Assembly (NCBI GenBank): GCA_017406505.1
Contig: JAFQYI010000108.1
Span: 1 to 36,410, forward strand
Direction of reading: 5' to 3'
DNA: 36,410 nucleotides
From: a bacterium
GTDB taxonomy: Bacteria; Cyanobacteriota; Vampirovibrionia; Gastranaerophilales; Gastranaerophilaceae
Part shown: piece by piece, positions 1,409-36,410 of the stretch
Numbering within the stretch: the stretch's first letter is position 1
Layout of the letters: each line of letters starts with the position of its first letter
Program-made: the position numbers and the translations under genes
Notes under the pieces: model-generated
Databases searched by the model: none
Told to the model about the DNA's origin: nothing
Seen by the model: the letters and a program-made list of their open reading frames with translations, nothing else

Positions 1409-1422
1409 ATTTTGAGGTGAAT

Positions 1423-10202: not shown

Positions 10203-10413
10203 AATTCCTTCTTCATTATAACTTAAACAAGAGTATGCTATCCACTATGTTACAAATAAATATATCTAATAGTAATTTGTTCTATTAAACATATTCACAC
10301 ATACATTTATCAATTATCTTTATTAAAAGTTCAACTGAATGTGTTGCTATGTAAAGATTTGAGTGCTTTCTATATACTTTCGCGCTAATGTTGTGTGTCA
10401 AAGGAGGTCATAT

Positions 10414-10629
10414 ATGGAAAAAGTCGGATTGAATATTACTCCAAAGGAGTTCAAGCAATTGAGCAAGTGGTCGGAGAATATTTATAATACAGCAGTTGTT
10501 ATTGATTATTTTGTTGCTAATCAACCGGAGATTGAAGAGTGCTACAATCTTGCGCCGGTAGTTAAACATTTACGAAAAGATGCAGATGTGTTGAATGCAT
10601 TCTTTATAGATCACGAAAAAGACATTTAA
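10414..10629 (+). CDS. hypothetical 71-aa protein
   Basis: The start was moved to the ATG at 10414, which has AAGGAGG 5 nt upstream; the track start at 10363 has no SD. No recognisable motif. Confidence 0.5.
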   Translation: MEKVGLNITPKEFKQLSKWSENIYNTAVVIDYFVANQPEIEECYNLAPVVKHLRKDADVLNAFFIDHEKDI

Positions 10630-10711
10630 ATGTATGCTTATTACATTAAGGTGCTAGAGATATTTTTGAGGTATAATTCTCTTAATAAGTAGATAAACTG
10701 GAATATAAGGA

Positions 10712-15235: not shown

Positions 15236-15452
15236 ATTGACAAAAGAAAAATTAGACATTCCGTATTCTAAGTTTAGAAAAAAGTTTGCAAAGGAAATTC
15301 AGGACGCATTTGAAAATTACCGCAAAACACAATTAAATAAATACTCTTGGAACTTCAAAGATGACAATTCTTTGGAGTTTAATTTTTATTTTGAACTCCA
15401 TTGGAATTTTAATCACTTTGGGATTTCTAATTGGTACATTAAAAGAATATGA
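15213..15452 (+). CDS. 79-aa protein whose C-terminal 47 aa recur at the C-terminus of 24232..24951
   Basis: ...FENYRKTQLNKYSWNFKDDNSLEFNFYFELHWNFNHFGISNWYIKRI versus ...FESYRKTQLNKYSWNFKDDNSLEFNFYFELHWNFNHFGNSNWYIERM. Most nucleotide differences between the copies are synonymous. Confidence 0.55.
   Translation: MKMILKNKLTKEKLDIPYSKFRKKFAKEIQDAFENYRKTQLNKYSWNFKDDNSLEFNFYFELHWNFNHFGISNWYIKRI
15307..15449 (+). repeat. 143-bp segment repeated at 24806-24948 (about 91% identity)
   Basis: Direct alignment by eye shows 13 mismatches and no indels. Confidence 0.9.
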
Positions 15453-16544: not shown

Positions 16545-16901
16545 TTATAAAACAGGGTTTGAATTAATTTGTCTCTTTATCCATTCCATAATTACTGAAA
16601 CAAGATATTCTTGTTCTGATTTTGTTAGTTCTCTGTGTTGGGAGAATTTGTACCATTTTTCTATACACCCGCGGCAGCAGGTGGCGGTTGCGTGTTGGGC
16701 GATAAAAACAGGATGTCCGCGCATTGGCGTTTGTTTACCATCGTTTACGGGTTTAGAGGGAGCTACTCTATCCCTAATAAAATCTTCTGCGTGGCTCTTG
16801 ATTTTATCAAGACCTTTGTCTTTGATATATTCAAGCTCTTTTGCGCGAAGCTTAAATCTACTCCTAAATTTTGATTTTGCTAATTTATCCAAAATATCCA
16901 T
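16545..16901 (-). CDS. DUF4186-family protein, copy 1
   Basis: GKQTPMRGHPVFIAQHATATCCRGCIEKW signature. 118 aa, about 91% identical to copy 3. Confidence 0.8.
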   Translation of the reverse strand: MDILDKLAKSKFRSRFKLRAKELEYIKDKGLDKIKSHAEDFIRDRVAPSKPVNDGKQTPMRGHPVFIAQHATATCCRGCIEKWYKFSQHRELTKSEQEYLVSVIMEWIKRQINSNPVL

Positions 16902-22632: not shown

Positions 22633-23286
22633 ATGAACTATAAAGTTATAGACAGAGAAGCATACTATCGAAAGGGAGTGTTCCGCCATTTCTCTGAAGA
22701 TTGCAAGTGTTCAACATCCATGACCGCAAGAATTGATGTTACTAATCTTGTTAATTATTCCAAAGAATCAGGAACAAAGTTCTATATTAACTTCCTTTAT
22801 ATTTTATCTAAGGTACTTAATTCTCGTGAGGATTACAGGATGGGATATCTTTACCAAACTGATGAACTAATCTGTTATGATGTAATCAATCCCACACAAT
22901 ACGTTTTTCATGAAGATACTGAAACTTGTACTCCTGTTTATACAAAATATGATAATGATTATGAAAAGTTCTATGACAAGGCTTTAAGCGATATTGAAAA
23001 TGCTAAAAAGACAAGGGAATATTTGCTTGATATGGCAAACCATCCTAACTGGTTTGATGCATCATTTATACCTTGGCTCTCTTATGATGCTCTAAATATC
23101 GAATTACCTGACGGTCATTTGTTTTTTGCTCCAATTATTAATTGGGGAAAATACAGAGAAGAAAATGGAAAACTTGTTATGCCTGTAAGTGTTCGTTTGA
23201 ATCATGCAATTGCAGATGGATATTTAGTTGCAAACGTATTTCGCCTCTTGGAACAGGAAATTAATTTATTTGTTAAACGTTTATAA
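22633..23286 (+). CDS. cat: type-A chloramphenicol O-acetyltransferase
   Basis: 217 aa with the CAT-family pattern throughout (REAYYRKGVFRHF..., INFLYILSKVLN, WFDASFIPW) and the catalytic-His motif as SVRLNHAIADGY. A TATAAT box lies about 15 nt upstream. Confidence 0.85.
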   Translation: MNYKVIDREAYYRKGVFRHFSEDCKCSTSMTARIDVTNLVNYSKESGTKFYINFLYILSKVLNSREDYRMGYLYQTDELICYDVINPTQYVFHEDTETCTPVYTKYDNDYEKFYDKALSDIENAKKTREYLLDMANHPNWFDASFIPWLSYDALNIELPDGHLFFAPIINWGKYREENGKLVMPVSVRLNHAIADGYLVANVFRLLEQEINLFVKRL

Positions 23287-23339: not shown

Positions 23340-23681
23340 TTATGAAATTTGTCTCTTAATCCATTCCATTATTATTGAAACAAGATACTCTTGCTCGGAT
23401 TTGGTTAGTTCCCTGTGTTGAGGAAATTTGTGCCATTTTTCAATACACCCACGACAGCAAGTAGCAGTTGCGTGTTGGGCGATAAAAACAGGATGCCCAC
23501 GCATTGGAGTTTGTTTACCATCATTCTCAGGATCTGCCGGAGCAACCCTATCCCGAATAAAATCGCAGGCATGAGAATAGATTTTATCCATTCCTTTATC
23601 TTTTATATATTCAAGTTCTTTAGAACGGAGTTTAAATCTGCTTCTGAACTTTGACTTTGCTAATCGATCCAAGATTTCCAT
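23340..23681 (-). CDS. DUF4186-family protein, copy 2
   Basis: Same signature as copies 1 and 3. 113 aa, about 89% identical to copy 3, convergent with cat. Confidence 0.8.
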   Translation of the reverse strand: MEILDRLAKSKFRSRFKLRSKELEYIKDKGMDKIYSHACDFIRDRVAPADPENDGKQTPMRGHPVFIAQHATATCCRGCIEKWHKFPQHRELTKSEQEYLVSIIMEWIKRQIS

Positions 23682-24194: not shown

Positions 24195-24951
24195 ATGCAG
24201 AATTCCCATTGGGTAGATATATATAAATAAATTGGCTGAGATTTTGGGTTTTAATGTAGAGACGTTAAGACGGTCTTGTGCCAATAATAAATATATTAAC
24301 CGATTTAAAAAATCCGGGAAATATAAACACTACGAAATTGATATTACATCTCTTTCTGAAAATTATTTAAATAAATATAATAAGTATTTTGAAAAAGATA
24401 ATAATAACTTGCAGTTAAATTCGGAAGAATATTCAAATGCTCAAGAATGGCAAAGAAAACAAGCGGATAAATATCTCGAATTAATTACTTTAACTGACGG
24501 GTTGTCGCATAATAAAGTAATTGAATTCCTTAAAAATTGGAATATTGCGCATCCTGATAAAAAAGTTTGCTACACCTCACTATATTATGCAAAACAAAAA
24601 TACGAAGAGTCAGGTGTTGCAGGTTTATTGTCAAAAAAGGGACAGGGTAATAATCACAGAATTATTCCTGATGATTATTATGAATATTATAAAAGTTTAT
24701 ATTTAAGAGAAGGTGCGCCATCAGCGTTTTTCTGTTGGCAAGCAACTTTAGGATATGCAAAAGATAAAGACAATGTTGATATCCTAAAATTCCCTTCATA
24801 TAAAACATTTGAAAGTTACCGAAAAACACAATTGAATAAATATTCTTGGAACTTCAAAGACGACAATTCTTTGGAGTTTAATTTTTATTTTGAACTACAT
24901 TGGAATTTTAATCACTTTGGAAATTCTAATTGGTATATAGAAAGAATGTAG
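24195..24951 (+). pseudogene. frameshifted gene for a Mu-transposase-type N-terminal DNA-binding protein without a DDE core
   Basis: AGGAGAAAG-ATG at 24195 gives MQNSHWVDIYK*. The reading continues in the +1 frame (track ORF from the TTG at 24232), and the shift falls in the (AT)n run 24217-24225. HWVDI..LAEILGFNVETLRRSCANNKY parallels DIWIDVETLAKLKNITRRAVRLALNQNKY of the 694-aa transposase. No catalytic domain is present, and the last 47 aa are the repeated tail. Confidence 0.5.
24806..24948 (+). repeat. second copy of the 143-bp segment (see 15307-15449)
   Basis: Direct alignment by eye. Confidence 0.9.
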
Positions 24952-24952: not shown

Positions 24953-25645
24953 TTAAATACTTCTTTGATAATTCCATATTAAGTGGTCTAATAATCTTAA
25001 ATTTAAATTGGGATATTCTTTTTTAAGTATTTCGCAACTTTGTTGTAATAAGGCTTGTGCATCTTGAATACTAACATTTTCATTAAGAATAGATTTTAAA
25101 AATGACAAAATTTGCCTATCAGGTTTTATTAAATTATCGTTTCCAGCAAGCATTAAAAAATATTTCAATGAGATTCCACTTCTTTGTCCGGGAATTTGCA
25201 TTATTTCTTCCGATATATAAAGATAGTTACTGTATAATTTGGGCATATCTTGGAAATAATCTATGCCATATTTGTTTAAAACTTTAGCAAATAAAAATAC
25301 AGCTTCAGATTTTAAAATACCATTTTGAGCAGATGTTCTGTTCCTGTTATCGAAGACCTTATTTGTAAAATCATATTTGTCTTCTAAATTAAGGAATTCA
25401 CTTATTGACTGCTGTTCTTCTTTTATAGGAACATCTTGAATGTTTTCTCTAATCTTATTCAATTTAAAAAAATTGCAATATTTTTGAACAACAGATTGCG
25501 TTGTCTGATATTTTATTCCTATAGAAAATACTGCATCGATTATACATAATGGTAAACTTTGATAATAATATTCATTACCAAGCTTCGCATTTCTTAAATT
25601 TAAATTATTTCTACAGAAATTAGCAATAAATTCGGTTTGTGTCAT
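24953..25645 (-). CDS. hypothetical 230-aa protein with a possible helix-hairpin-helix (glycosylase-like) segment
   Basis: IPGQRSGISLKYFLMLAGNDNLIKPDRQILSFL resembles the HhH-Gly-rich loop followed by Asp of HhH-GPD enzymes; this is a weak call. It starts 10 nt after the DUF262/DUF1524 gene. Confidence 0.5.
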   Translation of the reverse strand: MTQTEFIANFCRNNLNLRNAKLGNEYYYQSLPLCIIDAVFSIGIKYQTTQSVVQKYCNFFKLNKIRENIQDVPIKEEQQSISEFLNLEDKYDFTNKVFDNRNRTSAQNGILKSEAVFLFAKVLNKYGIDYFQDMPKLYSNYLYISEEIMQIPGQRSGISLKYFLMLAGNDNLIKPDRQILSFLKSILNENVSIQDAQALLQQSCEILKKEYPNLNLRLLDHLIWNYQRSI

Positions 25646-25655
25646 ATAAATTATC

Positions 25656-27467
25656 CTATATTGAATAATAGAATTTCTTAATTTTTTCAGCCATCATTTT
25701 TCTACGTTCTAGCAAAAATTCATCATAATCGCTTGCTTGCATTGTCAGAACTCTCTCAGGGATACAATTTGTTTTTAAATTATTTTTAAGTTCTTCTTCA
25801 TTTAAAATTGTACCTACGCAACATTGTCCATTTTTACATTGCTCTAATGCTTTTGTAAAATATTCACACGGAGCTTGCTTTCCAATAGAAATATTTACAC
25901 CGGTATCTAAATAAGTATAGTTTGCTACTTGATTATATTTTGATTTATCATCAAATCCGTTCTGTTTTAAATATTCTTTTGGGAATATATGATGAACATC
26001 ACCCATAATGGAAATCAAGTCAGAAACTTTGGTTGTTGAAGAGAACAATGACTGTTCTGCGTTCCAAACTTGTGCTGCAATATAGGTATTAAAATACGGA
26101 CTGTTAATAGATGAGGTTTCCAGATTTTGTACTAAACCTACATTCCAGAAAGCTTCAGATAAATCAGCTTCTTCAACTTCCTGCAAGAAAGCCTTAAATC
26201 CTTTTGCACTAATATTTCTTAAATCTCTATCCATTTGTGATTCAGGTGAACCGATATATCTGCTTGTCAACGTTGATAAAATGAACCACTTTTGTACTAA
26301 TTTTTTAACTTCTGTTTTTTCAATTTCTTTTGAATTGCTTAGCATTAAATATAATGTATAAGCGAAATCTAATGTCATTTTTGAATTTAAAAGTTTTTCA
26401 CTTATGAAGCCACAGCCTTTTATAGCAAGAACAAAATTTTTGAAATTATATTCGTTCATAAAATTTTTTACACCGGCTGTCAGTTTATTGAAGCTGTCTT
26501 CTGCAATATCTTCCTTATAAGTTCTTGTTTCAAAATCTCTACCAGATAGTAAGCTTACTAAATCACCTAGTTTACCTCTTCCGAATTTGTGCATTAGACA
26601 AACACGCAACATATCATTGTAATCAGGGTCATATATTGCCTCTTTATCATCCTTTAACCATTTTAATAATCCTGCAAATTCAGACTCCATAAATTCAATA
26701 TCTGTTGTAGAAAGTTTTTCATAAAAGTTTGGATCAACAGCTAAATGACAGAAATAGTCGATTGCTTTTCTAAGAATGTTGCCACCATATTTAGCATCTG
26801 CTGCAATTTTAGACATAGCAAAGTCTGATTCATTAAGGCGTTTGCCTTGAGAATTTATTCTTACAAAAATTTCTGTAACTTCGTTTATATCTAAATCCGG
26901 AACAAGTATTATTGTGCCCATTTGGCAAGTTCTAATATCTAATAATTTTTGAATTGCTCTATTAATAGTGTCCGTGGAAGCTTCAGGATTATTTTGCATG
27001 TATTCATTTATAAAATTAAAAGCGTTAAAATCAGGTTTAAATACAACGGAAATATCCGGAATCCAATTTTTACTTTTTACATGAGCTGGAGTTTGAACCG
27101 CAAAACGTTCCTCATCATCTTGCGCCAAAGGATTAAATGCTATTTTATATGCTTTTTGTTCGTATTCTTCAGTAAGAATACACTTGCCAGCCAATGCTGT
27201 CATTAAAGCTGTAACTCTTTGCTGACCATCAATTAAAATTTTTGTTCCGCCAGCCTCTCTACCATCTTTTAACCTTATATTTGGATTCTGCCAAATAATT
27301 AAATAACCTGTCGGATAACCATTATACAAAGAGTCTATCAGGTCTCTTACATTTTTAGGTTTCCAAACAAAAGGACGTTGTATTTCAGGAATGGATATTT
27401 CTCCACTATTTATAAAACCAAGAATATTATCTACTGAATATTGTGCAACTGAATATTTATTAGTCAT
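25656..27467 (-). CDS. DUF262 (ParB-like NTPase) + DUF1524 (HNH/His-Me) protein, GmrSD/SspE/BrxU-type nuclease
   Basis: N-terminus IPEIQRPFVWK...LIDGQQRVTAL. C-terminus GDVHHIFPKEYL...NQVANYTYLDTGVNISIG. 603 aa. Confidence 0.8.
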   Translation of the reverse strand: MTNKYSVAQYSVDNILGFINSGEISIPEIQRPFVWKPKNVRDLIDSLYNGYPTGYLIIWQNPNIRLKDGREAGGTKILIDGQQRVTALMTALAGKCILTEEYEQKAYKIAFNPLAQDDEERFAVQTPAHVKSKNWIPDISVVFKPDFNAFNFINEYMQNNPEASTDTINRAIQKLLDIRTCQMGTIILVPDLDINEVTEIFVRINSQGKRLNESDFAMSKIAADAKYGGNILRKAIDYFCHLAVDPNFYEKLSTTDIEFMESEFAGLLKWLKDDKEAIYDPDYNDMLRVCLMHKFGRGKLGDLVSLLSGRDFETRTYKEDIAEDSFNKLTAGVKNFMNEYNFKNFVLAIKGCGFISEKLLNSKMTLDFAYTLYLMLSNSKEIEKTEVKKLVQKWFILSTLTSRYIGSPESQMDRDLRNISAKGFKAFLQEVEEADLSEAFWNVGLVQNLETSSINSPYFNTYIAAQVWNAEQSLFSSTTKVSDLISIMGDVHHIFPKEYLKQNGFDDKSKYNQVANYTYLDTGVNISIGKQAPCEYFTKALEQCKNGQCCVGTILNEEELKNNLKTNCIPERVLTMQASDYDEFLLERRKMMAEKIKKFYYSI

Positions 27468-27474
27468 ACTCCAC

Positions 27475-27513
27475 TCCTTTTTTCTTTTAGGGTATCACAA
27501 AAATGGATTTAAA
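27475..27513 (-). repeat. ~38-nt 5' leader shared with 29403-29440
   Basis: mRNA sense is TT(T/C)AAATCCAT(T/G)TTTGTGATACCCTAAAAGAAAA(AA)GGAG, located directly upstream of the DUF262/DUF1524 start codon. It overlaps the DUF1848 stop. Confidence 0.85.
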
Positions 27514-28468
27514 AATTTAATTTTAGCTGATTTTGTGCTAGAGTTTTTGCCATTTTAACAGTTTTCATTTTTCTTTCAGAAATTTTATCAAGAACTTCAT
27601 TGACTTTATCACAGAGTAATTCAGAATTGTTATCTTGCTGAGCACAATTATTCAAAACCCATTGTCTGTTATAATTAGCATAACAATATTTACACCCGTT
27701 TTTACAAGTATTATATGCTCCTATATCAATACTTTCCGCACAACCACATTCTTTTCTCTGATTTTTATCTTTACTTAAACAGTATTGGCAATTTGTTAAG
27801 CGTTCCATTAAATCTGCATCAATACAATGAGCGTGTTCTATTCCAATATCACTTAAATCTATTTTTTCTGCACAAGTATCCATTTTTAAATTGTACTGCT
27901 GTGCTATACTTACCAATTCTTTTGCAATATCTCGAATAGTTTCATCATTAAAAGGTATAACATTTGTACCTTTTAAATTTTTCTCTGTTTTCTTATATAA
28001 ATCTACAAAACTAATAGTACATTTTTCTGTATAATCAGATAATTGTTTTGCTAATTTTTCAAAATTTTCAATATGATATGCAATACTATATTTATCATTC
28101 AGAAGGATTGGATCATATCGCCAAATTACTTTTTCTTTTCCTATCATATCAGATAATTTTTTGAATGTAGAAATTACATACTTTCCTTTGTTTGGTACAA
28201 ATTCTTCAATATCAGTATCATATGAATTTAGTGTAAATTGAAAATAATAGTTATAATCTTGTAGCTTATCTAATTTATCAAGTAATGGCTCTGGATTCTT
28301 TGTCCAAAATACAATAAAATCAACAACATCTGGAGTTAATTTTATTTTGCTGATTTGATGAATATTTAAAGGATTTCGCGCTAAAACAAACCCTTCTCTT
28401 ATTCTTTCCATAAACCAATCTGAGTAAAATGCTGGAATGTCCGTCCTTCTACTTGCGCTAATAATCAT
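27509..28468 (-). CDS. DUF1848-like protein with a C-terminal CX3CX2C (radical-SAM-like Fe-S) motif
   Basis: The N-terminus MIISASRRTDIPAFYSDWFMERIREG is typical of DUF1848. The C-terminus is ECGCAESIDIGAYNTCKNGCKYCYANY. Confidence 0.7.
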   Translation of the reverse strand: MIISASRRTDIPAFYSDWFMERIREGFVLARNPLNIHQISKIKLTPDVVDFIVFWTKNPEPLLDKLDKLQDYNYYFQFTLNSYDTDIEEFVPNKGKYVISTFKKLSDMIGKEKVIWRYDPILLNDKYSIAYHIENFEKLAKQLSDYTEKCTISFVDLYKKTEKNLKGTNVIPFNDETIRDIAKELVSIAQQYNLKMDTCAEKIDLSDIGIEHAHCIDADLMERLTNCQYCLSKDKNQRKECGCAESIDIGAYNTCKNGCKYCYANYNRQWVLNNCAQQDNNSELLCDKVNEVLDKISERKMKTVKMAKTLAQNQLKLNF

Positions 28469-29396
28469 TTGACACCCCGCAATTTATTAATAATTGTGCA
28501 CTTGTACATTTGTTTTGTTTAAATACAGGATGTCCAAAAAATGTTAATATTCTTTCGTATTTTTCTCCATATGGTGTAACATAAGTAGAATATTGAAAAT
28601 ATTTTTTCTTTTGTGAAAATATTCTAATATTTTTTTCTTCCAGTTGTTCTAATATTTTTTCAAATAAATCTATTCCGCGTAATGGATAATTTACATCGTT
28701 AATAATAATTATACAGTTTTGTATATTTTTATTTTTAAGTAAATTAGAAATACTTTCAAACATAATTAAAATTTTATCTCTATTGCCATCTGCAATAAAA
28801 CTAGAAATCACATAATTTAAAACTATTATATTAAATGTTTTGTTTTCCAATATATCACTATCCAAGATCTCTAAAATATCGCCATATCTTCCGGCAAAAC
28901 TTTCTATGGAAGCATCCTCTTGAACAACTTTTTTGATTTCCTTATGCACTTCTTTCCAAGTTTTTTCAATATCTATTCCATAATAATTTATAGTTTTTAA
29001 ATTTTCTTTTTGTTTATTGTAATAATCAATAGCAACAAATTCAGTAGATGGTCCACATCCTAAAGAAAGGAGATCATACTTCGCATAATCTTCTAAAATA
29101 CTATCACATTCATTTAAGGCGTATACTATCTCAGAAGCATAGCGATCTAATGAACGAAAAACGTATTGGTTAACTAATTTTTTACAGTTGTATTTTAAAC
29201 GAGAATTTTCTCTGTTTTCGGGATAATATATTTCATTAAAACAACAATTTTCAGAACAATAACATTGTCCTTCTGTTGGCGCAGGACATCTGCCACTAGG
29301 ATGTGAACACCCGCCTTCGCAGCCGCAACCTTGCAAAACTTCTGCAGAATTGTTTTGAGCATATTCCATTAAATAGTCATATAAACTGCTTGGCAA
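28458..29396 (-). CDS. class-I SAM-dependent methyltransferase with a Cys-rich N-terminal segment
   Basis: TTG start with AAAGGAG 6 nt upstream. GCGCEGGCSHPSGRCPAPTEGQCYCSENCC, then LLSLGCGPSTE (motif I), YYGIDIE and IIVLNYVISSF. There is no DPPY/NPPY or PCQ motif, so the substrate is unknown. Overlaps the DUF1848 gene by 11 nt. Confidence 0.65.
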   Translation of the reverse strand: MPSSLYDYLMEYAQNNSAEVLQGCGCEGGCSHPSGRCPAPTEGQCYCSENCCFNEIYYPENRENSRLKYNCKKLVNQYVFRSLDRYASEIVYALNECDSILEDYAKYDLLSLGCGPSTEFVAIDYYNKQKENLKTINYYGIDIEKTWKEVHKEIKKVVQEDASIESFAGRYGDILEILDSDILENKTFNIIVLNYVISSFIADGNRDKILIMFESISNLLKNKNIQNCIIIINDVNYPLRGIDLFEKILEQLEEKNIRIFSQKKKYFQYSTYVTPYGEKYERILTFFGHPVFKQNKCTSAQLLINCGVSNDY

Positions 29397-29402
29397 GACA
29401 TA

Positions 29403-29440
29403 CTCCTTTTCTTTTAGGGTATCACAAACATGGATTTGAA
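29403..29440 (-). repeat. second copy of the shared leader (see 27475-27513)
   Basis: Directly upstream of the methyltransferase start codon. Confidence 0.85.
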
Positions 29441-29454
29441 CATATTTTGAACGA

Positions 29455-29811
29455 TTATAAAACAGGGTTTGAATTAATTTGCCGGTTTATCCATTCCATA
29501 ATTACTGAAACAAGATATTCTTGTTCGGTTTGGGCTAGTTCTCTGTGTTGGGGAAATTTGTGCCATTTTTCAATACATCCGCGGCAGCATGTGGCGGTTG
29601 CGTGTTGAGCAATAAATACCGGATGTCCTCGCATTGGGGTTTGTTTGCCATCGTTCACAGGTTCAGCCGGAGCAACTCTATCCCTAATAAAATCACAGGC
29701 ATGAGAACGTATTTTATCAAGCCCTTTGTCTTTGATATATTCAAGCTCTTTTGCTCGGAGTTTAAATCTGCTCCTAAACTTTGATTTTGCAAGTCTATCT
29801 AAAATATCCAT
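29455..29811 (-). CDS. DUF4186-family protein, copy 3
   Basis: Same signature as copies 1 and 2. 14 nt of its 3' flank (29441-29454) are also shared with copy 1 (16531-16544). Confidence 0.8.
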   Translation of the reverse strand: MDILDRLAKSKFRSRFKLRAKELEYIKDKGLDKIRSHACDFIRDRVAPAEPVNDGKQTPMRGHPVFIAQHATATCCRGCIEKWHKFPQHRELAQTEQEYLVSVIMEWINRQINSNPVL

Positions 29812-29812
29812 A

Positions 29813-30262
29813 CTATTTCTCTTTGCACGTAGGTTTAAATTCTTCTTTTTCGTTTACAAAAACATAATTTGCGTTTCCTAGTGCACAATCAATTTCTCCA
29901 ACAAGTTTCATAACTGTTTGGATAGCATCAACCATCTCTGGTTCGCTGTGAACAGGAATTCTTTTGTAATTAAGTAAATAAAATAGTAATTTTTTATAAC
30001 TTTCTCTATCTTTACTGTTCAGAAGAAAGAAAAAATTACTTGCATTAGCACTTAACCAATTCATAACCTCTGCTGCTTCATTATTAGAACCTAAGAATAT
30101 TGTTATAATTTGATCTAATTTATTTGCGAGTTCAAGCCTGCGCATTTTAATATTTTGCATATTTTGTTGGTATGTAAGTATGCATTGTACTGCTGTAAAT
30201 ATAACAATAGCAATAGCACACATCCATTCTGCATTTTCTTGTAAAAATTTTAATATAGTCAT
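29813..30262 (-). CDS. 149-aa protein with one N-terminal transmembrane helix
   Basis: WMCAIAIVIFTAVQCILTY is a hydrophobic helix. Has a 4-nt overlap with the upstream gene and a 1-nt gap to DUF4186. Confidence 0.55.
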   Translation of the reverse strand: MTILKFLQENAEWMCAIAIVIFTAVQCILTYQQNMQNIKMRRLELANKLDQIITIFLGSNNEAAEVMNWLSANASNFFFLLNSKDRESYKKLLFYLLNYKRIPVHSEPEMVDAIQTVMKLVGEIDCALGNANYVFVNEKEEFKPTCKEK

Positions 30263-30612
30263 ACCTTCTCCTTATATGGTCCAACAGGACAATTTGCCGG
30301 ACGTGTTTCGTTCCACGCTTCAATTAATTTTTGTTTGCCATTAAATTTATTATACCAATATTTTACTTTGGCTATATTTTCTTTTGATGTTTTGCCCTCA
30401 ATTAGTTCACAATTATCAATCCGGAAACAAGCATTAATATCGACATTTTTCACATGAAAATGGCAGGGCGCATGCTCATTTGCATATATCTCAATTTTTA
30501 AATCACCAATATTATCAACTCTCTTACGGATTTCAACAACAACTCCATCATAAAATTGTGTTGAATTAATTGTATATGATAATGTCATTTCAAGGAATTC
30601 AAGCTTGTCCAT
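30259..30612 (-). CDS. DUF4160-like protein
   Basis: IEIYANEHAPCHFHVKNVDINACFRID matches the DUF4160 YxNEHxPPHxH core. The start was moved to the ATG at 30612 (AAAGGAG 5 nt upstream) from the track start at 30669. Confidence 0.65.
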   Translation of the reverse strand: MDKLEFLEMTLSYTINSTQFYDGVVVEIRKRVDNIGDLKIEIYANEHAPCHFHVKNVDINACFRIDNCELIEGKTSKENIAKVKYWYNKFNGKQKLIEAWNETRPANCPVGPYKEKV

Positions 30613-30746
30613 AAGTTCTCCTTTACTTCTAATAATATCATATATGACAGTTATGTCATATATGGACATAATTAAACATTAAACTATAAATTCAACTTTA
30701 CTTTCTTTTACTTTTGATACATCAATTATGTTAGTAGAGGTATTAT

Positions 30747-31543: not shown

Positions 31544-31632
31544 CTTACATTTTTTACACGAAAAATTGAGCAAATCTTACACTTTTTTACAGGAAAATTT
31601 GGGGTAAAATTACATTTTTTTACAGGAAAGTT
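31544..31632 (+). repeat. three 24-25-bp direct repeats (candidate transposase-binding sites / left end of transposon 2)
   Basis: CTTACATTTTTTACACGAAAAATT 31544, CTTACACTTTTTTACAGGAAAATTT 31576 and ATTACATTTTTTTACAGGAAAGTT 31609, spaced 32 and 33 bp. They lie between the phosphoesterase stop and the stop of the 508-aa gene. Confidence 0.6.
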
Positions 31633-33157
31633 ATAAAATTTGAAAATTACCATCCAATTTTTGCGGTAACAGAAAATTATATCTGCTTTCAAAATCTGTT
31701 AGTTTATAAAAACCTAAATTCCTGCTGATTACATTTATTTGTACATTTTTATCAAGCAACAGTTTTATATGTGTATTTAATAAGATATCAAAATTTTCAA
31801 TTTTAATATCTTTAAATACAAGCCCTTTTTGTTTTTTAGGTATTTTATTATACAAAACATCCGGAATATTTAGTGTCCTTATTTTATATTTTGCTCTAAT
31901 GTTTTCAATATTATCTTTAGCTTTAAATTTGCTGATATTAACCGTTTTATTGATAAAATTAATATCGGTATAATGCAGCGCACCAAGTTCTGCTATATTT
32001 ATTCCGGTTGCTAATATCCATAACTCTTGTATTTTACCGTTGTCGTCAACTGTTTGCTGAATTTCTAAATCTGTTAAAACTCTATTTTCTAATGACGGTA
32101 AAATTGTTTCTTGCGTTGAAAATAAAAGGTGAGAACTACTTGCATATTTTTTCATAATTTTTTGAAGTGTGCTTATAAATCGTTTTATACTTGCAACAGA
32201 ATAACCTTCCGATAACATTTTGCTTTGGTAATTAATTAAAGTTTCCTGAGTAATATCTTTAAACTTGTATTTGCCAAAATACGGATATAAATGGTTTTGG
32301 ATATAACCTCTTGCGCAAATCGAATATTCATCTTGCTTGTTTTTAAGTGATTTCAAATAATCATCAAATGCATCCTTAACTTTTTCGTATGTAATTTTAT
32401 CCGTTTCTTTTGTCGATATTTTGCGAAGATCGGGAAGCTTTAAACTTTCGCTTCTTCTTTTCTTGATATATTCCGCTGAAAAGTTTTTAGTCAGAGCTCT
32501 TCTAAAAGATTGCACACTTGAAATCTGTTCGTTCGGATGCCTACTTCTCAATATCTCCCAAGCAATTCTGACTGAATAATTTTTTGGCGATAAATATATT
32601 TCTTCAAATTCTTTTAATTGTTCTTTTGTTACTAAACTCTTATGTTGTGGCGGATTATAGGCTTTCATTAGCCCTAATAAGCCGTTTCTTGCATAAGATG
32701 ATTTCCATCTTATAAAAGTGCTATATCCCATTTTATAATCCGGATTTTTCTTGGCTATTTCATTTAACATTTTTGAGGTTTCTTTAAACGACAAACCGCT
32801 TGTTAATCTAAACAAATTCAGACATTTTATAATGTGGCGTTTATTGTATTCTGCAGCATTGTCAAATAATGTTTGTGCTTCTTTATTATCAGATAACAAT
32901 ATTGTAATATCAAAACATAGTGAGGGCTTAGAATTTTTAGCAGACCGATTTTGTGGCAGTGCTTCAATTTGTGGATGTGAAATAATATCCGGAATATATG
33001 CAAATTCATTTTCTGCAAGTTTACTTATAACTTTTTCTTCTATTAATTCTTTAAGCACATCTTGAATTTCATTATCTGGCAATTCTAATATGCTTGCGAT
33101 TTCATCAAAAGTAAACCTGCTAAGCTGTTTACATAGTTTCTTTATCTGCTGCTTCAT
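31631..33157 (-). CDS. third transposition-module protein of transposon 2: wHTH + Mu-type DNA-binding region + tyrosine-recombinase-like C-terminal half with degenerate catalytic residues
   Basis: YIQNHLYPYFGKYKFKDITQETLINYQSKMLSEGYSVASIKRFISTLQKI is a phage-integrase SAM-like core-binding pattern. In the following region, ATGINIAEL has N where Arg-I is expected, THIKLL has L where Arg-II is expected, and LGF replaces LGH. A Tyr is retained in ESRY. Confidence 0.6.
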   Translation of the reverse strand: MKQQIKKLCKQLSRFTFDEIASILELPDNEIQDVLKELIEEKVISKLAENEFAYIPDIISHPQIEALPQNRSAKNSKPSLCFDITILLSDNKEAQTLFDNAAEYNKRHIIKCLNLFRLTSGLSFKETSKMLNEIAKKNPDYKMGYSTFIRWKSSYARNGLLGLMKAYNPPQHKSLVTKEQLKEFEEIYLSPKNYSVRIAWEILRSRHPNEQISSVQSFRRALTKNFSAEYIKKRRSESLKLPDLRKISTKETDKITYEKVKDAFDDYLKSLKNKQDEYSICARGYIQNHLYPYFGKYKFKDITQETLINYQSKMLSEGYSVASIKRFISTLQKIMKKYASSSHLLFSTQETILPSLENRVLTDLEIQQTVDDNGKIQELWILATGINIAELGALHYTDINFINKTVNISKFKAKDNIENIRAKYKIRTLNIPDVLYNKIPKKQKGLVFKDIKIENFDILLNTHIKLLLDKNVQINVISRNLGFYKLTDFESRYNFLLPQKLDGNFQIL

Positions 33158-33839
33158 CGTTTAAAATCTCCTTAATTATAATTTCATCAACTGAATTTAA
33201 ACCGTTTGCTTTTGCATAACATTCGGCTTTATTTATGATTTTTACTATTTGACGAAACCTGTTAACATTTGAACAAATGCATTTTATAGCACATTCTGTC
33301 ATTTCAATTTCAGATAGCTCTTTTACTATGCCAACGATATCATTTTTAGAAAAAGGTTTAAATTGGACAATTTCTGAAAGCCTGTCATATAAGTGTTTAA
33401 ACCTTTTTATCCTTGATTTAGCATTTGACATCCCAACTAAAACAATAGGGACATTCGTTTTATCGTGAATATCTCTTAAAGTTTCAATTGCTCTTGAATC
33501 AATCGCCAAATAATCGACTTCATCAACGATTATTATATGCGGCTCTGTCAGCAAATTTCGTATAATAATCTTGAAACAATCTGCTAATCTTCCGCAACTA
33601 ACTTCGCCCATTTCATCCATAATTTCATTTAATAACCACCGAGCAGTCATAAGCTGAGTACATCGAACAAGTATAGCATTATTCTTAAATGCCCACCAAT
33701 TAATCGCTTGTGTTTTACCAAGCCCCGGCTCGCCATACACAAGTCCCATCCCCGGAACTCCTTCCGCTCGGTTCTGTAAATTGTTCATCATCGTAATAAA
33801 TCGCTTTACATTATTAGTTTTTACAAAGACTTTTTTCAT
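33129..33839 (-). CDS. AAA+ transposition ATPase (MuB/TnsC/TniB-like), copy 2
   Basis: GEPGLGKT and IIVDEVDYL. Clearly paralogous to 18915..19646. Confidence 0.85.
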   Translation of the reverse strand: MKKVFVKTNNVKRFITMMNNLQNRAEGVPGMGLVYGEPGLGKTQAINWWAFKNNAILVRCTQLMTARWLLNEIMDEMGEVSCGRLADCFKIIIRNLLTEPHIIIVDEVDYLAIDSRAIETLRDIHDKTNVPIVLVGMSNAKSRIKRFKHLYDRLSEIVQFKPFSKNDIVGIVKELSEIEMTECAIKCICSNVNRFRQIVKIINKAECYAKANGLNSVDEIIIKEILNDEAADKETM

Positions 33840-33926: not shown

Positions 33927-35158
33927 TTATACCCTAAAAGCAGACTCCATTTTATCAATTTCGGATTGGTTTAAACCTAGTTGCTTTGCTGCATTTCGCC
34001 AATTTTTTATAACACTTCTAAAATTATTTATAATTTGTTTGGCTTCTGTCATATTCAAATCAAAATATTCGCTAACAGAAAGAGCTAATTCTATATCTTG
34101 GGTATTATCAGTTTGAGTAATATATGTTGATAAAACATTTTTGTTATCAGAACTTGGATTAACATCGTATAGTGGCGATAATTTCCAACCTTTAGCTCCA
34201 ATATATAAAAATCCGTGGTTTCTTAAATGATCATCTGTGTTAGAAATTAATATTGAAAATACCATACGTTTCCAAAGTTCAAGTAAGTCTTCTTTTACGT
34301 TTGCACCATATTGTCTTATGGCATCTGCAATATCCAAATAACTGTGGATTTGTGTATCATTATCAATAGCATTTAACATACTCATTGCAGATAAGAAAGG
34401 TATTCTGAGATTACCCTTCTTTCTATCAAATCTTTTAAGTAAAATAACATTCTTTTTGCCGGCTTTTTGGATAGACCATTCTTGAACGTTCAATTCGCAT
34501 TGTTTAGCAAGAGTTAGTGCAACACCTTCCCATAAAACATTATTTGTAAAATCATCTTTTTTAGGGAATTTTGCAATGCATAAATCGCCATTTTTATCCA
34601 AAACGCTTGCTTTTGGTCTTGCCCCACCCAAGGATGAACCGGGAGCTAGGAGAAGCTGTAAATCACTCTCTTTTTCACTACTTTCAATAATTTTTTCAGA
34701 AGCAGCTAACAACTTTGTTAAATCAATTAACGGAGGAATTGCTTTTATATTACTTGAATATAGGAATTCGTCACTATTTTCTGTTTTAAATCTAAGCGCA
34801 CCTTGTCTTGCAATATCATTTACAAAAAGAAGATAATCTATTTCGTTTAATGTTCTTGGGCTTCTATTTTCTTTTTTTGCAAGTTGATTTTCATATCTGC
34901 GCATTAAAATTCTTCCCCAAGTATCCGGAGCACTATCACCAAACGAACCAAATAACGGAAGCTGTCTTGTATTAACCTGCTTGCCTTTTCCAAAGAATAA
35001 TCCCGGTTCTAAAGAAAATGAATTTTTGTAATTCAGCCATTCATCAAATACTCAAAATCAGAAGTTTCTTTTCCTCTTGAAAAATGCGACCAAAGAGTTC
35101 CGACAAAGTAATCAACACAATCTAAATTTATGTATACTAATACCTTTTTATCTGTCAT
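33927..35158 (-). pseudogene. hipA: HipA-family Ser/Thr kinase toxin gene interrupted by a 1-nt frameshift
   Basis: The ATG at 35158 (3 nt after the hipB-like stop) reads MTDKKVLVYINLDCVDYFVGTLW...SDFEYLMNG*. The next frame continues (F)DEWLNYKNSFSLEPGLFFGKGKQV...RILMRRYE into the track ORF 33927..34904. The shift lies in a short T run near 35046-35048. Kinase motifs are SSLGGARPK and TDDHLRNHGF. Confidence 0.7.
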
Positions 35159-35630: not shown

Positions 35631-36410
35631 TTACGAATATATTTCTTTGTATTCATCTGATTTAATGTAGTTCGCAAGCCAAACCCTGTCCTCATGACAT
35701 ACGCATCCGTTTTGCATATGCCATTCGTATCGTTCATAGGCACTTTTAAATATTGGTCTTGCAACGATAGAAGTCTTAACCTTTGGCTCAAACTTTTGTT
35801 CTTGCTTTGGCTGCTCCGGCTGAACGGTTATTTCTTTAATCGGTTCCTGTTCAGGCAGGCGAATATTTTGCATTAATTCTTTTTCTAAATAATCCATATC
35901 CTCAAGGTTAAATTGCTCTTTGACCGCCTTTATAGTTTTCTTGCGCAGTTTCTGTTGTTTTTCAATTTTATATTTATAATCTTCAATGTCGTTAATATCA
36001 CCCATTTGATGTGCAAGCGGATGAGTTTCTGTTACACGATGTGCTTTACAGATAAATTCGCCTTTGAGGGTGTAAACCTTAATATATGAAAGGTCAAATA
36101 AACTATATTTAATAACTGTTTTTTCTCTTATTCCGTATAGTGCCTCATCAAAGTAATCAGCTTTTAAGAACCTTATACCGTTTCTTCCGATATTTTTCAT
36201 TTCTTGCGCCATCATCAAATCGTCAAGCGTATTTTCATCAATATTTTGTTTTTCTGTTTCATTGATGACCTGTTGAATAGTTTTGCCGGGTACATTGGTG
36301 CATTCTTTGGAATGATAAAATTCAAGCCATTTATCTATCATTATCCGAGCCTGTTCTATTGTTGGGGTAAAACCATATTTCTCATGGATTCGCTTATGCA
36401 ATTTTTCATT
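35631..36410 (-). CDS. DDE transposase (Mu/TnsB type), C-terminal 259 aa only; the gene continues beyond the right edge
   Basis: The frame is open to base 36410 (NEKLHKRIHEKYGF... parallels NEKLHKNIHEKFGF of the 694-aa copy). About 85% amino-acid identity over the shared part. Confidence 0.85.
   Translation of the reverse strand, partial: NEKLHKRIHEKYGFTPTIEQARIMIDKWLEFYHSKECTNVPGKTIQQVINETEKQNIDENTLDDLMMAQEMKNIGRNGIRFLKADYFDEALYGIREKTVIKYSLFDLSYIKVYTLKGEFICKAHRVTETHPLAHQMGDINDIEDYKYKIEKQQKLRKKTIKAVKEQFNLEDMDYLEKELMQNIRLPEQEPIKEITVQPEQPKQEQKFEPKVKTSIVARPIFKSAYERYEWHMQNGCVCHEDRVWLANYIKSDEYKEIYS

What the first reader, a model, noticed from the sequence alone, without database searches (positions are those of the whole stretch)
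24953..30612. Co-directional array with a Cys-rich SAM methyltransferase, DUF1848 (radical-SAM-like) and a DUF262/DUF1524 nuclease: candidate undescribed DNA-modification-coupled defence system
Seven minus-strand genes are separated by overlaps of up to 11 nt or gaps of up to 58 nt:
- DUF4160-like protein.
- A 1-TM protein (4-nt overlap).
- DUF4186 (1-nt gap).
- A class-I SAM methyltransferase with a Cys-rich N-terminus (GCGCEGGCSHPSGRCPAPTEGQCYCSENCC).
- A DUF1848-like protein (11-nt overlap, so translational coupling). Its C-terminus CKNGCKYC has the CX3CX2C spacing of radical-SAM clusters.
- A 603-aa DUF262 (DGQQR) + DUF1524 (HHIFP..N..N) protein.
- A 230-aa protein with an HhH-like segment.

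DUF262/DUF1524 proteins in characterised systems (GmrSD, SspE, BrxU) read DNA modification status. Here one sits directly downstream of a coupled methyltransferase plus Fe-S-type enzyme pair that could write a modification. I do not recognise this gene combination as Dnd/Ssp, Dpd, BREX, DISARM or classical R-M. It lies in an island with R-M, Hachiman, TA and transposon genes. A DNA-repair role is an alternative.
Basis: partly seen in the sequence, partly recalled or inferred. Interest (0 to 1): 0.85.

Follow-up and report, generated by a model that had tools for sequence, protein, structure and literature searches.

The report
Mosaic defence cargo, not one system
The seven tightly packed genes are real, but they are separate cassettes stacked in the cargo of a transposon, not one modification-coupled defence system; two of the cassettes are uncharacterised gene pairs worth testing on their own.

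Summary
All seven minus-strand ORFs, their spacings and almost all domain calls are confirmed.

The single-system interpretation does not hold. Related contigs show the array is a mosaic of independent cassettes in the cargo of a Mu/Tn7-like transposon.

1. The Cys-rich class-I methyltransferase and DUF1848 form a real two-gene module.
   - Every methyltransferase homologue examined, down to about 30% identity, has DUF1848 immediately downstream.
   - Only 18 of 80 genomic and 17 of 55 viral DUF1848 genes have the methyltransferase upstream.
   - DUF1848 behaves as a circularly permuted radical-SAM enzyme. Moving its C-terminal Cys segment to the front lifts the Pfam Radical_SAM match from 14.7 to 30.8 bits.
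2. The 603-aa BrxU/GmrSD-like protein and the 230-aa protein form a second pair.
   - The 230-aa protein has an HhH-GPD DNA-glycosylase fold (pLDDT 96.5).
   - This pair usually occurs without the first module.
   - One contig shows the empty site: DUF4186 directly followed by GmrSD. In the window the 1.9-kb methyltransferase–DUF1848 cassette sits there, flanked by a duplicated 37-nt leader.
3. DUF4186 recurs in this transposon's cargo and has three copies in the window.

No named modification system matched in PADLOC. The functions of both pairs are inferred, not shown.

The parts
30259..30669 (-). DUF4160-family protein. The likely true start is the ATG at 30612. Variable cargo cassette together with the next gene.
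   Evidence: Pfam DUF4160 E 6.9e-9. Weak, sub-threshold match to the NCBIfam toxin DhiT model. This segment is replaced by a Macro-domain gene in L019 and L023.
29813..30262 (-). 149-aa protein with one N-terminal hydrophobic segment. Overlaps the DUF4160 gene by 4 nt.
   Evidence: ORF. No significant family match. Absent from related loci L002, L005 and L019.
29455..29811 (-). DUF4186 protein (YneG family). One of three paralogous copies in the window.
   Evidence: Pfam E 5.4e-53. Repeat family D1 has copies at 16566-16865, 23346-23645 and 29476-29775. It is present in the cargo of the same transposon in L018-L025 without the MTase/DUF1848 pair.
29407..29443 (-). Copy 2 of a 37-nt leader (TTTGTGATACCCTAAAAGAAAA core plus GGAG), immediately upstream of the MTase start.
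   Evidence: Direct repeat D7, 92% identical, spacing 1927 nt. Sequences. Two matches against 0.00 expected by chance. Present twice in every locus that carries the cassette.
28458..29396 (-). 312-aa class-I SAM methyltransferase with a Cys-rich N-terminal metal-binding-type domain. C30, C37, C45, C52 and C71 are invariant and C26 nearly so.
   Evidence: PADLOC methyltransferase model 2.7e-15. Alignment A1. Family of 1062 representatives at E<=1e-3. DUF1848 follows it in every context examined.
27509..28468 (-). DUF1848, read here as a circularly permuted radical-SAM enzyme. The CX3CXYC motif is at residues 255-262, and five further Cys are invariant.
   Evidence: Pfam DUF1848 E 5.6e-112. Permuted sequence hits PF04055 at E 3.9e-7 and 30.8 bits, above the gathering score of 29.5. 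Native sequence scores only 14.7 bits. Invariant Cys. Fold search gives weak TIM-barrel and NifB/Elp3/HydG matches.
27480..27516 (-). Copy 1 of the 37-nt leader, immediately upstream of the GmrSD-like gene. It marks the downstream boundary of the MTase-DUF1848 cassette.
   Evidence: Homology with the cassette-less loci L019 and L018 resumes at 27504 and 27485.
25656..27467 (-). 603-aa BrxU/GmrSD-like type IV restriction enzyme: DUF262 with DGQQR, and a C-terminal HHIFP His-Me-type motif.
   Evidence: Pfam GmrSD_N E 1.6e-31. PADLOC HEC-05 (the BrxU family) 1.2e-30 (the paper read). GmrSD_C sub-threshold, E 0.0027. The only solved relative is BrxU, 7P9K, E 1.8e-7.
24953..25645 (-). 230-aa protein with an HhH-GPD DNA-glycosylase fold. 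The hairpin is IPGQRSGIS, and Asp176 sits 19 residues after it.
   Evidence: AlphaFold2 pLDDT 96.5. All top 50 Foldseek PDB hits are HhH-GPD-type enzymes: MjOgg, MagIII, Mag1, OGG1, MutY and the queuine-salvage enzyme DUF2419. Alignment A4. It follows the GmrSD gene in homologues at 99, 97 and 61% identity.
24806..24947 (.). 142-nt repeat at the cargo-distal edge of the block. It is shared with a second transposon-like unit in the window.
   Evidence: Repeat D5: 15307-15448 and 24806-24947, 92% identical. Homology to L002, L018 and L019 ends at 24808.
31631..33839 (-). Transposition module upstream of the cargo: a TniB-like AAA+ protein (33129-33839) and a 508-aa protein with an integrase SAM-like domain (31631-33157).
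   Evidence: Pfam hits. 86% nucleotide identity to the same module in L019 and L023, which carry different cargo.

Best explanation
The array is a stack of independent cargo cassettes carried by a Mu/Tn7-like transposon (DDE transposase, TniB-like ATPase, and a 508-aa protein with an integrase SAM-like domain) inside a defence island. It is not a single system.

Cassette A is DUF4160 plus a 1-TM protein. It is variable.

Cassette B is DUF4186, a recurrent passenger of this transposon family.

Cassette C is the Cys-rich class-I SAM methyltransferase translationally coupled to DUF1848.
- DUF1848 is a circularly permuted radical-SAM enzyme whose cluster-binding CX3CXYC loop lies at the C-terminus.
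- DUF1848 is the core enzyme. It is widespread and mostly stand-alone in anaerobes.
- The methyltransferase is a dedicated accessory, never seen here without DUF1848.
- Inferred mechanism: the pair performs a two-step SAM-dependent reaction on a nucleic acid, most likely DNA. DUF1848 would do radical C-H activation via 5'-deoxyadenosyl radical and the partner would do methyl transfer.

Cassette D is a BrxU/GmrSD-like type IV restriction enzyme co-transcribed with an HhH-GPD-fold DNA glycosylase-like protein.
- Inferred mechanism: both act on modified foreign DNA. The nuclease cuts it. The HhH-GPD protein either excises the modified base or helps recognise it.

Cassette C was inserted as a 1.9-kb unit between DUF4186 and the GmrSD gene, duplicating a 37-nt leader.

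Shown: modularity, the insertion, the family and fold assignments, and the asymmetry of the MTase-DUF1848 linkage. Inferred: substrates, chemistry and any defence phenotype.
For: Modularity:
- MTase+DUF1848 are adjacent at 99, 50, 49, 46, 43, 30 and 30% MTase identity, with no GmrSD or 230-aa gene except in the ~99% copies.
- In 80 GTDB genomes the MTase is the only recurrent neighbour of DUF1848. It is present in 18 of 80, always immediately upstream on the same strand.
- In viral contigs the figure is 17 of 55.
- GmrSD plus the 230-aa gene is preceded by HTH/Peptidase_M78/HNH instead of MTase/DUF1848 in L018-L021 and L023-L025 (L022 starts at the GmrSD gene), with 15 similar places not shown.
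- Mosaic breakpoints are mapped.
- The empty site is L109, where DUF4186 is followed directly by GmrSD with a single leader.
- The duplicated leader flanks the cassette in the window and in L001-L005 and L108.

DUF1848 as permuted radical SAM. Eight Cys are invariant.

DUF1848 tree: paired and unpaired members are interleaved.

230-aa fold. The Asp is conserved in at least 90% of sequences.

BrxU-like.

Literature:
- UG25 RTs carry an N-terminal methylase domain and associate with DUF1848 (PMC9226505).
- Nuclease plus EndoIII-like sensor defence enzymes exist (PMC12191111).
Against: - The 5-kb block DUF4186-MTase-DUF1848-GmrSD-230aa is conserved at 97-99% identity on several contigs. A functional interaction in this particular lineage therefore cannot be excluded.
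- No biochemical data exist for either pair.
- The DUF1848 model is only moderately confident (pLDDT 79.7) and its fold matches are weak.
- The Radical_SAM match of the permuted sequence exceeds the gathering score for only one of five sequences.
- The 230-aa family is stand-alone in 77 of 80 metagenome loci. Its pairing with GmrSD is therefore lineage-restricted.
- The transposon ends were not defined.
Confidence: 0.75

Rival explanations
1. MTase plus DUF1848 write a new DNA modification on host DNA. The adjacent DUF262/DUF1524 enzyme reads its status, in the manner of SspE or BrxU. The array is then one modification-coupled defence system.
For: - The genes are co-directional and tightly packed, with no predicted terminators between them.
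- The same leader sequence precedes both the MTase and the GmrSD gene, which could give co-regulation.
- The five-gene block recurs on several contigs.
Against: - The contigs that carry the block are all 97-99% identical, so they reflect one recent ancestor.
- All more distant MTase-DUF1848 pairs lack GmrSD.
- The same GmrSD/230-aa pair is more often found without them.
- An empty site and a flanking duplication show a secondary insertion.
- The MTase has generic class-I motifs. It lacks the DPPY motif of amino-methyltransferases and the PC/ENV motifs of C5 DNA methylases.
Confidence: 0.08
2. MTase-DUF1848 is itself a mobile nucleic-acid hypermodification module, either anti-restriction or defence. 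It is carried by mobile elements and stacked next to a type IV enzyme because both deal with modified DNA. The two cassettes are independent but complementary.
For: - The pair lies next to AbiE, serine recombinases, DpnII R-M, RT-HD and PDDEXK genes in 5 of 7 metagenomic contexts.
- In viral contigs, 17 of 55 DUF1848 genes are paired, and clusters of serine recombinases and of tyrosine integrases each occur within 3 kb of DUF1848 in 9 loci.
- UG25 defence-type RTs are associated with DUF1848, and PADLOC has an RT-associated DUF1848 model.
- One MTase variant carries an RnlA-toxin-like N-terminal domain.
- A DUF1848 subfamily lies near ParB-methyltransferase fusions.
Against: - In GTDB genomes the paired loci are not enriched for recombinases: 1 of 18 against 2 of 62.
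- Their neighbours are mostly housekeeping genes.
- DUF1848 is mostly stand-alone and highly conserved, which is typical of a housekeeping enzyme.
- DUF1848 is rare in phage records: 8 of 50,697.
Confidence: 0.2
3. DUF1848, with or without the MTase, is a housekeeping repair or RNA-modification enzyme of anaerobes. One possibility is an SP-lyase-like radical-SAM DNA repair enzyme. Its presence in this island would then be incidental hitch-hiking.
For: - The family has at least 8000 clusters, and the 120 best-scoring share 57% identity or more with the window protein.
- JGI names members 'DNA repair photolyase'.
- It is chromosomal, with variable housekeeping neighbours, in 62 of 80 genomes.
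- Paired and unpaired forms are interleaved in the tree.
Against: - Here and in L002 it is clearly cargo of a transposon among defence genes.
- There is no sequence match to SP lyase or any other solved structure.
- The function of the dedicated MTase partner is left unexplained.
Confidence: 0.3

Closest known systems
BrxU / GmrSD-family type IV restriction enzymes (PADLOC HEC-05; PDB 7P9K)
   Same: - The 603-aa protein has DUF262 with the DGQQR motif and a C-terminal (D/H)HI(Y/F)P His-Me-type motif.
- It has a similar length and is a single polypeptide.
- It is located among other defence genes.
   Different: - Only the N-terminal ~50 residues align significantly to BrxU.
- The DUF1524 match is sub-threshold.
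- It is followed by a co-oriented HhH-GPD-fold gene. I found no mention of such a partner for BrxU or GmrSD in the papers read.
END nucleases (nuclease fused to an inactivated EndoIII/Ogg-like sensor; PMC12191111)
   Same: A modification-dependent nuclease is combined with an HhH-glycosylase-superfamily module that recognises non-canonical bases.
   Different: - Here the HhH-GPD module is a separate 230-aa protein, not a fused domain.
- The nuclease is DUF262/DUF1524-type, not PLD-type.
- The conserved Asp is retained in at least 90% of the family, so the protein may be catalytically active.
Brig1 / Brig3 anti-phage DNA glycosylases (PMC13160076)
   Same: Glycosylases in defence islands that excise modified phage bases. 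Brig3 works in a two-gene operon.
   Different: Brig3 has an AAG-like mixed alpha/beta fold, and the END paper found its EndoIII/OGG-like domain not similar to the predicted structure of Brig1. The 230-aa protein is all-helical with an HhH-GPD fold. No phenotype is known for it.
UG25 defence-associated reverse transcriptases with DUF1848 (PMC9226505)
   Same: A methyltransferase module is genetically coupled to DUF1848. The PADLOC model RTasDUF1848 matches the window protein at 1.3e-55.
   Different: - There is no reverse transcriptase here.
- The MTase is a free-standing ~300-aa protein with a Cys-rich domain.
- Homology of this MTase to the UG25 methylase domain was not tested.
Radical SAM superfamily (PF04055), including SP lyase-type 'DNA repair photolyases'
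   Same: - The CX3CX(aromatic)C motif is present.
- The permuted sequence aligns to 135 of the 166 profile positions (4-138).
- The predicted fold is partial-TIM-barrel-like, with NifB, Elp3 and HydG among the structural hits.
   Different: - The cluster loop is at the C-terminus instead of the N-terminus, which is a circular permutation.
- Five additional Cys are invariant.
- There is no detectable sequence similarity to any solved radical-SAM structure.
Tn7 / Tn5053-like transposons that carry defence cargo
   Same: - A Mu-type DDE transposase, a TniB/TnsC-like AAA+ protein and a third protein are present.
- Variable cargo includes R-M, Thoeris-like TIR, Macro, GmrSD and TA genes.
   Different: - The third protein has an integrase SAM-like domain rather than a recognisable TniQ.
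- No TnsA was seen.
- The transposon ends and target site were not defined.

Membership tests
GmrSD/BrxU type IV restriction enzymes | N-terminal DUF262 (GmrSD_N) domain with the DGQQR nucleotide-hydrolysis motif | tested here: met
   PF03235 E 1.6e-31 over residues 15-220. LIDGQQRVTAL is in the sequence. It aligns to BrxU 7P9K.
GmrSD/BrxU type IV restriction enzymes | C-terminal DUF1524 (GmrSD_C) His-Me/HNH nuclease domain | tested here: inconclusive
   PF07510 E 0.0027 and 18 bits, below the cut-off of 23. The HHIFP...N...N motif is present. BrxU has DHIYP and HEC-06 has EHICP.
GmrSD/BrxU type IV restriction enzymes | Cleaves modified (for example glucosyl-hmC) DNA and protects against phage | not testable with these tools
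   Needs plaque assays and in vitro cleavage.
Radical SAM superfamily | CX3CX2C motif with an aromatic residue before the third Cys, conserved across the family | tested here: met
   C255, C259, Y261 and C262 are invariant in 25 and 35 sequences.
Radical SAM superfamily | Profile match to PF04055 above the gathering score | tested here: inconclusive
   - Native sequence: 14.7 bits over the cluster loop only.
- Circularly permuted window protein: 30.8 bits against a gathering score of 29.5, covering profile positions 4-138.
- Four other permuted homologues: 15-18 bits.
Radical SAM superfamily | [4Fe-4S] cluster and reductive SAM cleavage to 5'-deoxyadenosine | not testable with these tools
   Needs anaerobic reconstitution, EPR and a 5'-dA assay.
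Class I SAM-dependent methyltransferases | Rossmann-type motif I (GxGxG-like) and acidic motif II | tested here: met
   LSLGCGP and G140/D142 (GIDI) are conserved. PADLOC methyltransferase model 2.7e-15. Relatives carry PF13847.
DNA amino- or C5-methyltransferases | Catalytic (D/N/S)PP(Y/F/W) motif, or PC and ENV motifs | tested here: not met
   Neither motif appears among the conserved columns of A1. There is no Pfam DNA-methylase hit.
HhH-GPD DNA glycosylase superfamily | Two-lobed all-helical fold with a helix-hairpin-helix | tested here: met
   pLDDT 96.5. All top 50 PDB fold matches are HhH-GPD-type enzymes, with probabilities 0.57-1.00 and TM up to 0.64. E-values are weak (at least 0.015), and there is no Pfam hit.
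HhH-GPD DNA glycosylase superfamily | Gly-rich hairpin followed about 20 residues later by a catalytic Asp | tested here: met
   G153, Q154 and G157 are invariant. D176 is conserved in at least 90% of sequences and lies 19 residues after G157. Equivalence to the catalytic Asp is inferred from spacing, not from a superposition.
HhH-GPD DNA glycosylase superfamily | Base-excision activity | not testable with these tools
   Needs a glycosylase assay with a D176 mutant as control.
Dnd/Ssp, Dpd, BREX, DISARM or classical R-M over 24953-30669 | Presence of the signature genes (DndA-E/SspA-D, DpdA-C, PglX/BrxC, DrmA-C, or a cognate REase-MTase pair) | tested here: not met
   A PADLOC scan of all seven proteins gives no such hit. 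The only related match is a weak SspE hit (1.2e-4) that covers only residues 24-51, inside the N-terminal DUF262 domain.
A single conserved multi-gene system comprising MTase, DUF1848 and DUF262/DUF1524 | Co-occurrence of the components across divergent lineages | tested here: not met
   Co-occurrence is seen only in ~97-99%-identical copies.
MTase-DUF1848 two-gene module | Immediate adjacency on the same strand across divergent lineages | tested here: met
   - 7 of 7 divergent MTase-anchored contexts.
- 18 of 18 MTase hits in genomes.
- 16 of the 17 MTase hits in viral contigs end within 12 nt of the DUF1848 start; in L205 the MTase-like ORF ends about 1.7 kb upstream.
- The converse holds for only 18 of 80 and 17 of 55 DUF1848 genes.

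The most novel reading that the evidence does not exclude
The Cys-rich methyltransferase plus DUF1848 pair is an oxygen-independent two-enzyme writer of a new nucleic-acid hypermodification. The methyltransferase would install a methyl mark. The circularly permuted radical-SAM enzyme would then functionalise it, or do the reverse. This would be an anaerobic counterpart of the TET/JBP-type pathways used by phages and mobile elements. Mobile elements in gut anaerobes would use it for anti-restriction or defence. Separately, the BrxU-like nuclease plus free-standing HhH-GPD glycosylase would be an 'in trans' version of the END-nuclease architecture.
Probability: 0.2. Interest if true: 0.85.

Novelty: new variant of a known kind. 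Interest (0 to 1): 0.5.

Why it matters
The seven-gene 'system' is an ordinary consequence of cassette stacking in a transposon-borne defence island. It should not be catalogued as a new multi-gene system. The dissection does isolate two clean, small targets that can be tested.

1. A strictly coupled methyltransferase plus permuted radical-SAM pair. Profile search finds 1062 representative methyltransferases, and DUF1848 has thousands of members. No function or structure is on record, and I found only three papers that mention DUF1848 at all. Solving it would annotate a very common gene of gut anaerobes.
2. A BrxU-like type IV enzyme with a partner from a highly conserved HhH-GPD family that has no Pfam model. 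This connects to recent work on anti-phage glycosylases and END nucleases.

The empty-site and filled-site pair, with its duplicated leader, is also a tidy example of how defence cargo is exchanged.

Tried and rejected
- Sequence searches of DUF1848, the MTase, DUF4186 and the 230-aa protein against PDB chains, singly and as profiles, found no meaningful relatives.
- The Foldseek search for DUF1848 gave only weak generic TIM-barrel and radical-SAM matches.
- The literature holds nothing functional on DUF1848, PF08902 or DUF4186. The UG25 search added nothing beyond the 2022 paper.
- The promoter and terminator scan was uninformative in this AT-rich DNA: 44 promoter-like sites against 36.7 expected.
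- A megablast of the block against plasmids found no match.
- The source organism could not be named. Cluster look-ups returned no names.
- PADLOC and Pfam profiling of 139 neighbours of paired loci showed no dominant partner family. I did not run the matching control set.
- A recombinase-proximity test showed no enrichment for paired against unpaired DUF1848 loci in genomes: 1 of 18 against 2 of 62, p=0.54. I therefore dropped the claim that the pair is generally borne on mobile elements.
- I considered that DUF4186 belongs with MTase/DUF1848 and rejected it. It is not a recurrent neighbour in 80 genomes. It occurs three times in the window and, in L018-L025, without the pair.

Full report
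**1. The observation**

The seven minus-strand ORFs are present as described. Their junctions, read from the coordinates, are a 4-nt overlap, a 1-nt gap, a 58-nt gap, an 11-nt overlap, a 41-nt gap and a 10-nt gap.

Pfam confirms four assignments:

| Family | E-value |
|---|---|
| DUF4160 | 6.9e-9 |
| DUF4186 | 5.4e-53 |
| DUF1848 | 5.6e-112 |
| GmrSD_N/DUF262 | 1.6e-31 |

- The DUF1524 half of the 603-aa protein is sub-threshold: PF07510 at E 0.0027 and 18 bits against a cut-off of 23. The HHIFP motif is there.
- The 603-aa protein hits the PADLOC model HEC-05 at 1.2e-30. HEC-05 is the BrxU family. BrxU, PDB 7P9K, is its only solved relative.
- The 312-aa protein has no Pfam hit above threshold. 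It matches a PADLOC methyltransferase model at 2.7e-15.
- PADLOC finds no Dnd, Ssp, Dpd, BREX or DISARM component.

**2. The methyltransferase–DUF1848 pair is a real module**

The word-indexed search found 35 MTase relatives. A profile search of 1.84 billion representatives found 1062 at E<=1e-3 and 301 at E<=1e-30, mostly about 300 aa long.

Alignment A1 shows these conserved features:
- Cys at positions 30, 37, 45, 52 and 71 are invariant, and C26 nearly so. They lie ahead of a generic class-I fold with LSLGCGP, GIDI, NY..S and INDVN.
- There are no DNA amino-methylase or C5-methylase catalytic motifs.

In every context anchored on an MTase homologue, DUF1848 is the next gene on the same strand. 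This holds at 99, 50, 49, 46, 43, 30 and 30% identity. The flanking genes are otherwise unrelated.

Anchoring on DUF1848 gives the opposite picture.
- The family is very large, with at least 8000 clusters. The 120 best-scoring clusters share 57% identity or more with the window protein. JGI calls some members 'DNA repair photolyase'.
- In 80 GTDB genomes, mostly gut Clostridia, the MTase sits immediately upstream in 18.
- It is the only recurrent neighbour. DUF4186, DUF262 and the 230-aa family never appear.
- In viral contigs the figure is 17 of 55.
- Paired and unpaired DUF1848 genes are interleaved in a neighbour-joining tree.

DUF1848 is therefore the core enzyme and the MTase a dedicated, facultative accessory.

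**3. DUF1848 is a circularly permuted radical-SAM enzyme**

- C255-X3-C259-X-Y-C262 is invariant. So are C150, C199, C215, C241 and C243.
- The native sequence matches PF04055 only across the cluster loop, at 14.7 bits.
- I moved residues 228-300 in front of residues 1-227. The window protein then matches PF04055 over profile positions 4-138, at E 3.9e-7 and 30.8 bits. The gathering score is 29.5.
- Four other permuted homologues also match, more weakly.
- The AlphaFold model is moderate, at pLDDT 79.7.
- Foldseek finds TIM barrels and, with the best rmsd, NifB, Elp3 and HydG.
- There is no solved sequence relative.

**4. The GmrSD-like gene and the 230-aa gene form a second, independent pair**

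- The 230-aa family has more than 428 members at about 50% identity, spanning bacteria and archaea. All are annotated hypothetical, and there is no Pfam model.
- Its model is very confident, at pLDDT 96.5.
- All top 50 PDB fold matches are HhH-GPD-type enzymes: MjOgg, MagIII, Mag1, OGG1, MutY and the queuine-salvage enzyme DUF2419.
- The alignment shows an invariant G-Q-x-x-G hairpin. An Asp conserved in at least 90% of sequences lies 19 residues later. That spacing is the signature of the superfamily, which I state from general knowledge.
- The near-identical protein P0036 was read on 23 contigs. In L018-L021 and L023-L025 the GmrSD gene is preceded by divergent HTH/Peptidase_M78 and HNH genes instead of MTase/DUF1848; L022 starts at the GmrSD gene.
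- A 61%-identical homologue still has the GmrSD partner. Below about 55% identity the family is stand-alone: 77 of 80 metagenome loci, and also in Cupriavidus.

**5. Mosaic structure and the insertion**

BLAST of the window against related loci gives these segments:

| Window segment | Content | Status in L019 |
|---|---|---|
| 33921-31543 | TniB plus 508-aa protein | Shared, 86% identity |
| 31543-29812 | Metallophosphatase, DUF4160, 1-TM | Replaced by a Macro gene |
| 29812-29474 | DUF4186 | Shared, 89% identity |
| 29474-27504 | MTase plus DUF1848 | Replaced by HNH/M78/HTH genes |
| 27504-24808 | GmrSD plus 230-aa gene | Shared, 95% identity |

- A 37-nt direct repeat lies just upstream of the GmrSD start (27480-27516) and just upstream of the MTase start (29407-29443). 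The spacing is 1927 nt.
- The repeat is found twice against 0.00 expected by chance.
- Contig L109, 97% identical, has DUF4186 followed directly by GmrSD with one copy of the leader. This is the empty site.
- Every locus with the cassette has two copies.
- The MTase–DUF1848 unit is therefore a secondary 1.9-kb insertion.

DUF4186 occurs three times in the window. It recurs in this transposon's cargo, directly downstream of the first cargo gene in L019, L023 and L024, whatever else is carried.

**6. Is MTase–DUF1848 a defence module?**

The evidence is mixed.

For:
- Five of seven metagenomic contexts are of the mobile-element or defence type.
- In viral contigs, clusters of serine recombinases and of tyrosine integrases each occur within 3 kb of DUF1848 in 9 loci.
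- UG25 RTs, which are fused to a methylase, associate with DUF1848.
- One MTase variant has an RnlA-like N-terminal domain, and one DUF1848 subfamily lies near a ParB-methyltransferase fusion.

Against:
- In GTDB genomes, recombinases are near only 1 of 18 paired and 2 of 62 unpaired loci.
- Neighbours are mostly housekeeping genes.
- DUF1848 is rare in phage records: 8 of 50,697.

I commit to a two-step SAM-dependent reaction on a nucleic acid as the most likely chemistry. This is an inference. I leave its biological role open between mobile-element modification and housekeeping repair or modification.

**7. Verdict**

- The sub-claim of a coupled methyltransferase/Fe-S enzyme pair is upheld and sharpened.
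- The closest known things are BrxU/GmrSD type IV enzymes, END nucleases and Brig glycosylases for cassette D, and UG25-associated DUF1848 and the radical-SAM superfamily for cassette C.
- The whole is defence cargo of a Tn7/Mu-like transposon.

Noticed in passing
window 16545-16901, 23340-23681, 29455-29811 (all minus strand): There are three paralogous DUF4186 genes at 81-85% nucleotide identity. Two of them lie inside transposon-like units. In the related loci L019, L023 and L024, DUF4186 sits directly downstream of the first cargo gene after the TniB/508-aa module. E. coli YneG belongs to the same uncharacterised family.
   Followed up: partly
window 22633-23286 (+): A chloramphenicol acetyltransferase gene (Pfam CAT, E 2.9e-46) lies directly beside the middle DUF4186 copy. 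It is an antibiotic-resistance gene inside the same mosaic region.
   Followed up: no
window 27480-27516 and 29407-29443: A 37-nt leader (core TTTGTGATACCCTAAAAGAAAA followed by GGAG) precedes both the GmrSD-like and the MTase start codons and bounds the inserted cassette. It may be a shared promoter/RBS, or the recombination substrate for cassette exchange.
   Followed up: yes
window 31550-31615: Two tandem 33-nt repeats (TTTTTTACACGAAAAATTGAGCAAATCTTACAC and a 76%-identical copy) lie just 3' of the 508-aa gene. This is exactly where homology to other transposon copies ends and variable cargo begins. They could be a protein-binding or recombination site.
   Followed up: no
window 15307-15448 and 24806-24947: A 142-nt repeat, 92% identical, lies at the cargo-distal edge of both transposon-like units. 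It overlaps the conserved C-terminus (...NWYIERM) of a convergent ORF also seen in L109-L111. It may be a transposon-end region.
   Followed up: partly
window 33927-34904 (-): A HipA_C kinase-toxin gene (E 1.1e-47) sits between the TniB-like gene and fragments of the Mu-type transposase (35631-36401). The second transposition module therefore looks disrupted.
   Followed up: no
window 1390-4438 (+): A UvrA-like ABC ATPase paralogue (847 aa, with a UvrA DNA-binding domain) overlaps a UDG-superfamily glycosylase gene by 11 nt. This could be another DNA-lesion or modification-sensing pair.
   Followed up: no
window 7865-14178: Two DNA methylase genes (N6_N4_Mtase and an Eco57I/TaqI_C type) and a Hachiman pair (HamA plus DEAD helicase) confirm the defence-island setting.
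   Followed up: partly
L060:4859-5992, L211:6569-7999, L094:4863-5996: Three MTase family variants were seen. In one the Cys-rich segment is at the C-terminus instead of the N-terminus (L060). One has an N-terminal RnlA-toxin-like domain (L211, E 1.1e-5). One has an extra N-terminal zinc-ribbon-like extension (L094). The Cys-rich element therefore behaves as a separable domain.
   Followed up: partly
L214-L219 (IMG/VR contigs): A shorter DUF1848 subfamily (matching query residues 1-266 in most of these loci) has its own conserved neighbours. These include a ParB_N-methyltransferase fusion downstream (L217:8429-9898). This is a second, unrelated methyltransferase association.
   Followed up: partly
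L212 (393-kb contig), L228 (297 kb), phage record LR756501 (735 kb): DUF1848 homologues occur on very large phage-like contigs.
   Followed up: no
L002:7249-9581: A sister copy of the transposon carries different cargo upstream of the same block: 8xMP, ThsB_TIR, Macro and DUF6994 genes. The DUF4186 region is present in the DNA (L002 9586-9942 by BLAST) but was not called as a gene there.
   Followed up: no
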